64,000 nucleotides of DNA from Eledone cirrhosa (taxonomy: Eukaryota), in assembly GCA_964016885.1 (NCBI GenBank), contig OZ024761.1, positions 16,926,001-16,990,000 of the forward strand. The letters run 5' to 3'. Numbering within the stretch: the first letter of the stretch is position 1; every line of letters starts with the position of its first letter. A model generated the notes under the pieces. That model was not told the origin of the DNA. It worked only from the letters and a program-made list of their open reading frames with translations, and searched no databases. The position numbers and the translations under genes are program-made. Below, one piece after another: positions 21,301 to 24,300 of this stretch.

Positions 21301-24300
21301 AGTTGTGATCTCTCAATTCAGAGTATGGTTGGATAATGTTCTTGAGCTCGGCTGGTCTCGCTTGGGGTTCCAGCCAGATCAATTGGAAACAGTTGCTTCT
21401 GACAGGACCCTCTGGAAAAAAGTGGGTGAAAAAGCTCTACTGATTCTATATATATAATAATGTATAATAATGAAAATATTGTGTACAGTGCTCAGGTGCA
21501 CTACAACTCATCAAAAAGTGTATATATAGTACATAGGGTAATGTACAAAAGTCAGGAAAATGAACAGTGCATGAGTCATGATATACACATGTGTGCATGT
21601 GTATGGAAGGGGTACATCAGGTGTAGTTTTGGCAAATTTCGGGAAGCATGAGGGTTTTAAAGGATGCCGTGTCTCGGCAGCTAATAACTGATGCAGGTAG
21701 TTTGTTCCATGGAGGTTTTAAAGGATGCAGTGTCTCGGCAGCTAACAACTGATGCAGGCAGTTTGTTCCATGCTTCAGCAACTCTAAGCGTGAAAAAATG
21801 TTCCCGAAAGTCATGGAAGCTGTGTTGTTTTCTGACTTTGTAGGCATGTCCACGTGTGTTAGACACATGGAGATCAAAAAGGTGCTCAGGGTTGTTGTTG
21901 GCGAGATGGTTAATAACTTTGTGGGTGTTTACCAAGTCCATTGCCAGACGTCGGAGCTTCAATGAATCCATGCCCAGGGAAGCAAGGCATTCAGAGTATG
22001 GTAGGTGTCTGATGGAGGGTATGCGCTTGGTTGCACGTCTCTGAACAGTTTCCAGGAGGTCAATGTTCTGAGCAAAATAGGGGTTCCAGACTGATGATGC
22101 GAATTCCAAGTGTGGTCGTATCATAGCTGTATACAGCTGTATACTATGCGTCTTTTCTGCCAATCCATAGCTAACTGCTAATGTGAAGTTGATGTAGAAT
22201 TTTTCCTTAAGTATATCACCAGTTATAGATGGCGTGGAAAGTTCTGACCTTGTGGTGACGTTCTCAGCCCTGTGTAAGTGGAATGACTATGCACTCCCTA
22301 AAGAGTTTGCAGGTAAACTTAAGGAGGAACTTCGAATCAGCCCTAACAACCTTGAGAGTGAGTATAGGGCCCCTATTTTTTGTTTTTGTTTGTTTTGTTT
22401 TCTGGTTTCCCTTATTTCATGTTGGGGCTAAATAGGGGCTAAGGTGGTGGTGGTGTTATGTAGGTGTAGTAGTAGTAGTGGTGGTAATGTTATGTAGTGG
22501 TAGTGATGGTGTGGGTAGTGTTACGTGGTGGTGGTGGTGGTAGTGGTAGTGGGCATGTTATGTGGTGGTGGTGGTAGTGGGCTTGTTATGTGGTGGTAGT
22601 GGGCTTGTTATGTGGTGGTGGTGGTGGTAGTGGGCTTGTTATGTGGTGGTGGTGGTAGTGGGCATGTTATGTGGTGAGCATGTTATGTGGTGGTGGTGGT
22701 GGTGGTGGTAGTGGGCATGTTATTGGTGGTGGTGGTGGTCATGGCAGGAATCTATCATGTTCTCTCTCATTATCCCACAGACTCCAACTACCAAGAGAAC
22801 ACTCCGACACCAAGCATCCAGCCAGGTCAACTGATAGTTGAGCCATATTCCTGGAAGAGTTTGGTCGCTGGTCAGCCAATCCTGATATTACGGACAACAG
22901 CTACCCGTTCTTCCACTGTCACTCTTCCACCCGGGTATGTGTCATCATTTTGGTGTTTGTTCTATGGTGACCGCATCGATCATTATCATTTCAATGTCTA
23001 CCCACTGTGCCAAAAGTAGAAACAATTATATATATATATAGGTGTGCATGTTTGGAAATTAAAAAAAAATTTAATATTTATCTTTAAATTAAAAAATTTT
23101 CTAATTTTATGAGAACCTTTTTGTTAAATTATGTTCTAAACGCCATCTTAATTGTATATTTGTCTTCTTTTTTTCCCTCCTTCCACATCTCCTCCTTCTC
23201 CTCGTTGTTGTTGTTGTTCTTCTTCTTCTTTTTCTTCTTTTTCTTCTTTTTCTTCTTTTTCTTCTTCTTCTTCTCCTCCTCGTCGCCATTGTTGTTCTTC
23301 TTCTTCTCCTCCGCCTCCCGCTTCTTCCCCCTCCTCATCACCACTACCAACACCACCACCACAACAGACGTCATGTGCTGAAGTTTATGATGACCTGTCC
23401 CCTAGGCTTCAGTCTCCACCTCACCTCTGACAGTCCCTTTATATTTGGAGATGAGGAGAACATTATGAACCAGTGTAGCAAGGTAAGTTGTCACATCTCT
23501 CTCTCCCACAATATATTACTGCTATCTCATCTTATCTCACCTCTTTTCATTTCATTTTGTTTCATCTTATCTCATCTTATCCCGTTTCATTTTGTTTCAA
23601 CTGATCTGATCTCATCTTATCTCATTTCATTTCAGTTTATCTTACTTCATCTCATTTCATTTTATTTCATTGCATTTCACCTCATCTAATTTCATCTGAT
23701 CTAATCTCATTTCATCTCACCTCATCTAATTTCATCTGATCTGATCTCATTTCATCTCACCTCATCTAATTTCATCTGATCTGATCTCATTTCATCTTAC
23801 CTCATCTAATTTCATCTGATCTAATCTCATTTCATCTCACCTCATCTAATTTCATCTGATCTGATCTCATTTCATCTCACCTCATCTAATTTCATCTGAT
23901 CTGATCTCATTTCATATCACCTCATCTAATTTCATCTGATCTGATCTCATTTCATCTTACCTCATCTAATTTCATCTGATCTGATCTGATCTCATTTCAT
24001 CTCACCTCATCTCATTTCATTTCATCTCACCTCATCTCATTTCATTTCATCTCGCCTCATCTCATTTCATTTCATCTTATTTCCAGGAAAGTTGCCGCTT
24101 TGTAGAGTCTGCTCAGCGTTTGATCTACAGCATTGAGGACTGTGTCTTTAGTTTTGGTTCCAAGGAAGAATATGAAAAAGCTGAAATGAAGCTGAAGTCA
24201 AACCTCTACCCACCAGCCCCCAAATCTGCATATTCAAAGACTCTGCAATTCGAGGTAAAAGTAACCACTGTTTTATTCTGCACTGACTGACACCCTGTTC

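What the first reader, a model, noticed from the sequence alone, without database searches (positions are those of the whole stretch)
24087..24254. Androglobin globin domain appears to lack the proximal HisF8 and distal GlnE7
Seen: the exon covering helices E-F contains no histidine. Aligned without gaps to human ADGB as I recall it (ESCRFTEQ..LQTAHYP, with E7 Gln and F8 His 32 residues apart), E7 is Ser (TCT 24108-24110) and F8 is Leu (CTC 24204-24206, one base from CAC). The rest of the gene is intact. Established: HisF8 is the near-invariant heme-iron ligand of globins. Inference: a heme-free or alternatively ligated (adjacent Tyr) androglobin retained for a structural or calmodulin-binding role.
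Basis: partly seen in the sequence, partly recalled or inferred. Interest (0 to 1): 0.75.

Follow-up and report, generated by a model that had tools for sequence, protein, structure and literature searches.

The report
Octopus androglobin lacking heme-binding histidine
In this genome and two other octopus species, the cilia-and-sperm protein androglobin has leucine where globins normally have the histidine that holds the heme iron, while cuttlefish, snails and clams keep it; the octopus domain is likely heme-free, a state already described in insects and one that recurs in several other animal groups.

Summary
Exon 24087-24254 belongs to a single-copy, open-frame androglobin (ADGB). It aligns gap-free with homologues, and the proximal HisF8 column is Leu (CTC). 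Octopus vulgaris and O. bimaculoides also have Leu, so this is no sequencing slip; all 16 other lophotrochozoan sequences, cuttlefish included, have His. E7 is Ser, but the molluscan state is Asn, not Gln, and one nemertean has SerE7 with HisF8. The octopod globin domain evolved about twice as fast relative to its flanks as in other molluscs, lost further pocket residues, and has no shared His. It keeps helix lengths, core, IQ motif and a predicted globin half-fold. The adjacent-Tyr idea fails: O. vulgaris has Phe there. Best reading (0.7): a heme-free pseudo-globin kept as a calmodulin-binding ciliary scaffold; heme binding was not tested. The state is not unique: published for insects, and here 21 of 65 ADGBs lack HisF8, in about nine separate bilaterian lineages. 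It contradicts a published statement that octopus lost Adgb. An earlier scan note on shark ADGB found the same E7 variability on other DNA. Interest 0.4.

The parts
227..52431 (+). Androglobin (ADGB) gene, part inside the window (calpain-like part to stop codon); N-terminal exons lie upstream
   Evidence: tblastn of four homologues gives collinear exon hits; stop-free exon chains; one match in the genome for the E-F exon
22223..23482 (+). Three exons of Androglobin domain II (22223-22357, 22781-22934, 23368-23482) directly before the globin insert
   Evidence: Pfam PF22068 hits, E 1.4e-13, 7.1e-10 and 0.00089
24087..24254 (+). Exon for globin helices E, F and the start of G; no His
   Evidence: helix limits from the model of the O. 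bimaculoides orthologue
24108..24110 (+). E7 column: Ser (TCT); Asn in most other molluscs, Gln in most vertebrates
24204..24206 (+). F8 column: Leu (CTC) in place of the proximal His; Leu in 3 of 3 octopods
24207..24209 (+).
24231..24233 (+). Tyr nine residues after F8, shared by the three octopods where the other lophotrochozoan rows shown have Ile, Met or Leu; best remaining candidate for a pocket filler or alternative ligand (inferred)
24246..24248 (+). Gln in place of the His of the conserved His-Phe pair at the start of helix G (label G4 is my own count)
   Evidence: His in 16 of 16 other lophotrochozoan rows, Gln in 3 of 3 octopods
25440..25578 (+). Exon for helices G-H
26351..26384 (+). 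34-nt linker exon between helix H and the IQ motif; phases fit both neighbours
29283..29377 (+). Exon with intact IQ calmodulin-binding motif
   Evidence: Pfam PF00612, 22.2 bits, over the 20.3 cut-off; motif pattern met
31625..31718 (+). Exon for permuted helices A-B
33776..33910 (+). Exon for the end of helix B, helix C and the CD corner: the B14 column is Ile (Phe in 16 of 16 other lophotrochozoans), CD1 Tyr kept; then start of domain IV
   Evidence: CD1 assignment after PMC11077535, B14 label by my own count

Best explanation
This is a single-copy octopod androglobin with an open reading frame whose circularly permuted globin domain has leucine instead of the proximal heme histidine, a change shared by all three octopods examined and absent from cuttlefish and other molluscs; the domain is likely heme-free and likely kept as a folded helical scaffold that presents the calmodulin-binding IQ helix within a ciliary or flagellar protein. 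Shown: the substitution, its sharing, its origin after the split from cuttlefish, faster change in the globin part than in the flanks, loss of further pocket residues (E7 Asn to Ser, F9 Cys, G-helix His to Gln, B14 Phe to Ile), and retention of helix lengths, core hydrophobics and the IQ motif. Inferred: without an axial ligand the domain cannot hold heme in the globin manner, so the NO-binding and nitrite-reductase chemistry reported for the human domain would be lost; selection then acts on fold, calmodulin binding and the C2-like and calpain-like domains, which also serve in unicellular relatives that have no globin domain at all.
For: F8 is Leu in 3 of 3 octopods and His in 16 of 16 other lophotrochozoan rows, gap-free, spacing 32. 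No His is shared by the three octopods anywhere in the globin helices, and no His-bearing second copy was found in the genome. Globin-to-flank branch length ratio: octopods 3.8 (bootstrap 2.85-5.37), cuttlefish plus P0006 1.16 (0.70-1.89), gastropods and bivalves 1.99 (1.55-2.62); octopods higher in 150 of 150 bootstraps for each comparison. Of 46 globin columns conserved in other lophotrochozoans the window keeps 23 and cuttlefish 42 (Fisher p 2e-5), against 116 and 125 of 166 in the flanks (p 0.32). Fold retention: E-H and A-C spans equal in length to cuttlefish, 40 of 46 hydrophobic columns still hydrophobic; O. bimaculoides domain model pLDDT 88, pTM 0.82, Leu at the end of helix F; 17 of the top 50 structural matches are globins aligned over model residues 1-85/86, rmsd 2.5-3.5. 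Published: H824G/Q792G mutants of the human domain still bind calmodulin (PMC9249397) and still localise to the centrosome (PMC13696810); unicellular Adgb lacks the globin domain (PMC13331133); Tetrahymena Adgb is a C1b central-apparatus component (PMC8175508).
Against: Heme binding was not measured, and no tool here scores it. The structural matches to globins are weak (Z 3.3-4.7, all under 5, with a non-globin ranked first) and Foldseek found nothing at E <= 0.001; the model is of O. bimaculoides, not of the window's protein. A Tyr nine residues after F8, CD1 Tyr (His in O. vulgaris) and an E-helix Cys remain as possible ligands. A raised globin-to-flank ratio is not specific to His loss: His-bearing tips such as Asterias (4.43), Glandiceps (3.40) and Lineus (3.21) are also high, while His-less Polypterus (0.93), Pangasianodon (0.96) and Discoglossus (1.11) are not. 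Faster change could be positive selection; no dN/dS was possible. Only three octopods were available, and the O. bimaculoides protein lacks most of domain II.
Confidence: 0.7

Rival explanations
1. The domain still binds heme through another residue, most plausibly the octopod-specific Tyr nine residues after F8 (24231-24233) or a CD-corner or E-helix residue, giving a Tyr- or Cys-ligated sensor.
For: That Tyr is shared by 3 of 3 octopods where the other lophotrochozoan rows shown have Ile, Met or Leu. The fold is predicted to persist, and CD1 is still Tyr in the window and O. bimaculoides. Tyr at F8 itself occurs in sea cucumber ADGB and in Daphnia globins (PMC7457136).
Against: CD1 is His in O. 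vulgaris and B14 Phe is lost in all three. Half of the conserved globin columns changed, more like relaxation than a tuned ligand swap.
Confidence: 0.12
2. The pocket has been repurposed for a non-heme ligand (lipid, other small molecule) or a protein partner, so the faster change reflects adaptation and not loss.
For: Many changes are on the octopod stem and shared by all three species (stem ratio 3.13). Non-heme globin-fold families exist (RsbR, phycocyanin, photoglobin; PMC8717448).
Against: Divergence continues among octopods after the stem (window tip ratio 3.51; 53% identity to O. vulgaris in the globin part against 79% in the flanks), as expected under relaxed constraint. No ligand evidence.
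Confidence: 0.12
3. The gene is decaying, or the Leu is a sequencing, assembly or alignment error, or RNA editing restores His.
For: CTC is one base from CAC. One short linker exon could not be found. PMC8136487 reports Adgb as lost in octopus.
Against: Leu in two other species; contigs agree; 626 codons across 15 exons without a stop, and flanks as conserved as in cuttlefish; the alignment is gap-free. A-to-I editing, the common kind in cephalopods, reads as A to G and cannot turn a Leu codon into a His codon (established knowledge, not tested).
Confidence: 0.04

Closest known systems
Hexapod (insect) androglobins with degenerate globin domains (Prothmann et al. 2020, PMC7457136; passages read)
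   Same: Full ADGB gene kept while both the E7 His/Gln and the F8 His are missing.
   Different: The insect domains are described as heavily degenerated and barely recognisable. The octopod domain aligns without gaps, keeps helix lengths and a predicted fold, is 38-43% identical to the cuttlefish domain, and has a His-bearing sister lineage, so the loss can be placed and compared.
Human ADGB globin domain (Reeder et al. 2024, PMC11077535; Nie et al. 2024, PMC11665612; Keppner et al. 2022, PMC9249397)
   Same: Permuted order E-H, IQ, A-C; E7 to F8 spacing of 32; CD1 Tyr in the window; intact IQ motif.
   Different: Human has Gln792 and His824, binds heme and NO and reduces nitrite. The octopod has Ser and Leu. 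The Cys978 partner of the human disulfide is Phe in all invertebrate rows, so that difference is not octopod-specific.
Cuttlefish and other molluscan ADGB (P0005, P0006, P0010-P0020)
   Same: Orthologous, same architecture; 58% (cuttlefish) identity in the flanking domains.
   Different: They keep AsnE7, HisF8-Cys-Pro, the G-helix His and B14 Phe; octopods changed all of these.
Globin-less unicellular Adgb and Chlamydomonas FAP42 (PMC13331133, PMC8175508; PDB 7n6g, 7sqc)
   Same: The beta-sandwich domains of the octopod model match FAP42 in the C1 central-pair structure (Z 17.6, rmsd 2.7, 227 residues); function without heme is established there by absence of the domain.
   Different: They never had the globin insert or IQ helix; the octopod protein keeps both.

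Membership tests
Androglobin (ADGB) | Calpain-like N-terminal part followed by Androglobin domains II and IV | tested here: met
   PF22068 hits on three exons; collinear tblastn hits to four ADGB homologues from the calpain-like part to the C-terminus; the first ~247 residues lie outside the window
Androglobin (ADGB) | Circularly permuted globin domain, helices E-H before A-C | tested here: met
   Gap-free alignment to homologues in both halves; helical model of the O. bimaculoides orthologue
Androglobin (ADGB) | IQ calmodulin-binding motif between helices H and A | tested here: met
   PF00612 over cut-off; pattern met. Binding itself was not tested.
Androglobin (ADGB) | Single-copy gene | tested here: met
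   One match with the exon's own protein and one at E < 0.5 with the cuttlefish segment; counts are lower bounds, and the whole-protein search gave no answer
Androglobin (ADGB) | Expression in testis or motile-ciliated cells | not testable with these tools
   No RNA holder listed
Heme-binding globin | Proximal HisF8 | tested here: not met
   Leu in the window and two other octopods; no His within 4 residues
Heme-binding globin | Distal E7 His or Gln | tested here: not met
   Ser; weak criterion in ADGB, since His-bearing molluscs have Asn and Tubulanus has Ser
Heme-binding globin | Aromatic CD1 | tested here: met
   Tyr in the window by the assignment of PMC11077535; His in O. vulgaris
Heme-binding globin | Globin fold | tested here: inconclusive
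   17 of 50 top matches are globins over the E-H half, Z 3.3-4.7, rmsd 2.5-3.5, 77-83 residues; below the level the tool calls reliable; permutation limits a sequential match
Heme-binding globin | Binds heme with a Soret band | not testable with these tools
   Needs the recombinant domain
ADGB with degenerate heme site (as in hexapods) | Loss of both E7 His/Gln and F8 His in an otherwise retained gene | tested here: met
   definition from PMC7457136

The most novel reading that the evidence does not exclude
Androglobin is a globin in which heme is optional: animals have dropped its iron-binding histidine at least nine separate times (octopods, sea cucumbers, bichir, two teleost groups, four frog lineages, plus cnidarians and insects) while keeping the folded domain and IQ helix, so the conserved job of the domain is calmodulin-dependent scaffolding in the ciliary central apparatus and the NO chemistry is a lineage-specific extra. 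Octopus versus cuttlefish is a natural pair for testing this.
Probability: 0.45. Interest if true: 0.6.

Novelty: new member of a known kind. Interest (0 to 1): 0.4.

Why it matters
Whether heme and NO chemistry are the core function of androglobin, a protein needed for mammalian sperm formation, is open; recent papers propose that the globin insert added O2- or redox-sensing to an older ciliary scaffold (PMC13331133, discussion read). A lineage that keeps the domain but drops the iron ligand, beside a sister lineage that keeps it, gives a direct comparison (octopus, cuttlefish, and the Leu-to-His revertant). The survey also shows that loss of HisF8 recurs across animals, which I did not find stated outside insects in my searches; the founding paper (Hoogewijs et al. 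2012) was not held and may note some cases. It also corrects the statement in PMC8136487 that octopus lost Adgb. The interest is capped because heme-less ADGB is already described in insects and the functional claim is untested.

Tried and rejected
Homologue search with the 56-residue exon against longer proteins found nothing; the representative search found one protein, O. bimaculoides ADGB, which then gave 63 homologues. A search for shorter fragments found only the query, so no further cephalopods (Nautilus, cirrates, vampire squid, argonaut) were obtained. No solved ADGB structure by sequence: nothing for the exon and only FAP42 for platypus ADGB. The atlas gave no usable hit for the exon. 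No RNA holder listed for the exon; two RAD-seq runs had no reads on it. The fold search with the 566-residue model was filled by beta-sandwich domains; Foldseek with the domain alone gave no match at E <= 0.001. PF00042 finds 7 places in the genome, none at this locus, but precomputed PF00042 is also absent from His-bearing cuttlefish ADGB, so this says nothing on degeneration. Rejected: adjacent-Tyr ligation; 'loss of Gln' at E7; sequencing error; a His-bearing paralogue or alternative exon; loss of the human disulfide as an octopod trait. No complex prediction was run: IQ-calmodulin is a textbook pair and the tool does not score heme. AlphaFold apo models cannot settle pocket size: PMC11077535 notes that helix F fills the heme space even in the human model. 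The supplementary alignment of PMC7457136 is a figure whose letters I could not read, and the supplement of PMC13331133 was cut when stored and showed no Octopus or Sepia entry.

Full report
1. The sequence. Window 24087-24254 is a 168-nt exon with AG and GT ends, read in phase 0 as 56 residues without His. Neighbouring exons hit Pfam Androglobin domain II and the IQ motif. tblastn with four androglobin homologues maps collinear exons from 227 to about 52290 on the + strand. A 15-exon chain from 15769 to 38627 gives 626 codons without a stop, all junctions AG/GT; a 7-exon chain before it and a 6-exon chain after it are also open, the last ending in a stop at 52429-52431. Not resolved: the ends of two low-complexity exons near 11800 and 13430, a linker exon of about 14 codons that O. 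vulgaris has between 38627 and 42603 (not found), and about 247 residues upstream of the window. The exon has one match in the genome, and the His-bearing cuttlefish segment finds only the same place at E < 0.5. The closest named relatives are Octopus species (79-84% identity in the flanking domains), so the source is likely an octopod.

2. Register. Papers give human Q792 (E7), H824 (F8) (PMC9249397, passages) and C787 (PMC11077535, parts 1-2 of 7 and passages). Cys at exon position 3, Ser at 8 and Leu at 40 reproduce these spacings. No human sequence was among my hits; platypus and other vertebrate rows carry Gln and His in the same two columns. I realigned this region for 65 sequences: the window, O. 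bimaculoides P0002 and all 63 hits (P0003, a second model of the same O. bimaculoides gene, was left out). The window aligns without gaps. F8 is His in 44 of 65, Leu in 7, Tyr 4, Asp 3, Cys 3, Val 2, Asn 1, Glu 1. Several structural matches begin in a register that puts model residue 8 on globin E7 if helix E has no gap: myoglobin 57 to model 1 gives His64 (named as distal in PMC11665612), and alpha-globin 51 to model 1 gives residue 58 (that 58 is E7 is recalled).

3. It is an octopod trait. F8 is Leu and E7 Ser in the window, O. vulgaris and O. bimaculoides, although the window shares only 30 and 28 of 56 residues with them in this exon. All 16 other lophotrochozoan rows have His, including cuttlefish and the unnamed P0006, which groups with cuttlefish in the tree. 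The change thus lies on the octopod stem, after the split from cuttlefish. Contigs from two runs of one sample carry the exon with no difference, but may be the assembly's source. A-to-I editing cannot create a His codon from CTC (established knowledge).

4. E7 is Asn in 15 of those 16 rows and Ser in Tubulanus, which keeps HisF8; Gln appears only in vertebrates. The E7 change is therefore minor. The adjacent Tyr is Phe in O. vulgaris, and TyrF9 is common beside an intact His in frogs. No His is shared by the three octopods in the globin helices; shared possible ligands are one E-helix Cys (also in cuttlefish) and four Tyr, of which the one nine residues after F8 (24231-24233) is new in octopods and close to the proximal side by sequence.

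5. The whole pocket changed. On a fixed species tree of 21 sequences, summed branch length in 136 globin columns over 292 flank columns is 3.8 for octopods (bootstrap 2.85-5.37), 1.16 for cuttlefish plus P0006, 1.99 for gastropods and bivalves and 2.07 for other lophotrochozoans; octopods were higher in 150 of 150 bootstraps in each comparison. Of 46 globin columns conserved in the 14 non-cephalopod lophotrochozoans, the window keeps 23, O. vulgaris 26, cuttlefish 42; of 166 flank columns 116, 122 and 125 (window against cuttlefish: p 2e-5 and p 0.32). Shared octopod changes include F9 Cys, the His of the His-Phe pair at the start of helix G, and B14 Phe to Ile (labels by my own count). Against over-reading: the ratio is noisy on single branches, high in some His-bearing tips (Asterias 4.43, Glandiceps 3.40) and low in some His-less ones (Polypterus 0.93, Pangasianodon 0.96), and amino-acid rates do not separate relaxation from positive selection.

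6. The fold seems kept. Segment lengths equal those of cuttlefish, and 40 of 46 hydrophobic columns stay hydrophobic. The O. bimaculoides domain, folded with a 40-row alignment, gives pLDDT 88 and pTM 0.82, with helices at 3-21, 26-40, 48-69, 74-84, the IQ helix and the A-C helices; the Leu ends helix F. The alignment is mostly His-bearing homologues, which can impose the fold. Of the top 50 structural matches 17 are globins over residues 1-85/86 with Z 3.3-4.7: consistent, but weak. The beta-sandwich domains match Chlamydomonas FAP42 of the central pair (Z 17.6).

7. How common is it? On a gene tree of 61 rows (4 dropped: sturgeon, one Apostichopus, one Styela, Saccoglossus), 41 have His and the 20 others fall into 11 groups: octopods (Leu), sea cucumbers (Tyr), Polypterus (Leu), Pangasianodon (Val), four other teleosts (Cys, Cys, Cys, Tyr), Discoglossus, Mantella, Hyla (Leu), Xenopus (Val), and cnidarians in two groups split by the rooting. 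That is nine bilaterian losses if His is not regained; the cnidarian region is diverged and could be ancestral or misaligned. The hit set is not a random sample, and single-species cases rest on predicted proteins that I could not check in reads. Insects are already published as lacking E7 and F8 (PMC7457136, passages).

8. Mechanism. Most likely (0.7) the octopod domain no longer binds heme and persists as a helical scaffold carrying the IQ helix. Support from print: F8/E7 mutants of the human domain keep calmodulin binding (PMC9249397) and centrosomal localisation (PMC13696810, passages); unicellular Adgb lacks the globin domain (PMC13331133, abstract and sections 6, 10, 11); Tetrahymena Adgb is part of the C1b projection (PMC8175508, passages). 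Rivals: alternative Tyr or Cys ligation (0.12), a repurposed pocket (0.12), artefact or decay (0.04). Heme binding, calmodulin binding and expression are untested here.

9. Novelty. Searches for androglobin with proximal histidine, HisF8, octopus, cephalopod, or 'globin domain, histidine, lack' gave no paper describing the octopod change. PMC8136487 (passages) states that Adgb was lost in octopus, which this locus and the named O. vulgaris and O. bimaculoides proteins contradict. PMC7475203, PMC8717448 and PMC7771090 (passages) add nothing on F8 in ADGB. Hoogewijs et al. 2012 was not held and not seen; it may list His-less cases. Verdict: real, lineage-wide, a new member of a known kind; interest 0.4, and 0.6 if the wider claim that heme is optional for ADGB holds.

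Noticed in passing
window 11975-12383: 26-bp minisatellite, 15.8 copies, 93% matches, whose unit holds the end of an ADGB exon and its splice donor, so about 15 decoy donors follow the exon. A donor-side counterpart of the acceptor-side 'mirage' arrays noted elsewhere in this genome; which donor is used is unknown.
   Followed up: partly
window 38628-42602: A linker exon of about 14 codons present in O. vulgaris ADGB was not found in this intron, which holds a long repeat array with a period of about 47 bases (about 38700-40200). The exon may be diverged, lost or missing from the assembly; a weaker donor at 38629 would join the flanking exons in frame.
   Followed up: partly
P0022-P0024 (sea cucumbers); P0028-P0030, P0040 (anthozoans): Sea cucumber ADGB has His at E7 and Tyr at F8; anthozoan ADGB has His at E7 and a diverged F helix without His. 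These may hold heme differently.
   Followed up: no
P0047, P0046, P0051, P0057, P0052, P0060, P0062-P0065: Bichir, four frogs and five teleosts lack HisF8; bichir has the same Leu-Tyr-Pro-Pro stretch as the window, by convergence.
   Followed up: partly
P0004: O. vulgaris has His at the CD1 column where the window and O. bimaculoides have Tyr.
   Followed up: no
window 23523-24082: A 35-40-bp period pyrimidine-rich array runs up to the acceptor of the E-F exon.
   Followed up: no
window 21684-22286 (-), 29905-30375 (+), 7804-8258 (-): Intronic reading frames that look like LINE reverse-transcriptase and LTR-integrase fragments (recognised from memory, not searched).
   Followed up: no
L005-L011: Seven other places in the genome match the Globin family PF00042, one with an internal TGA (L005).
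   Followed up: no
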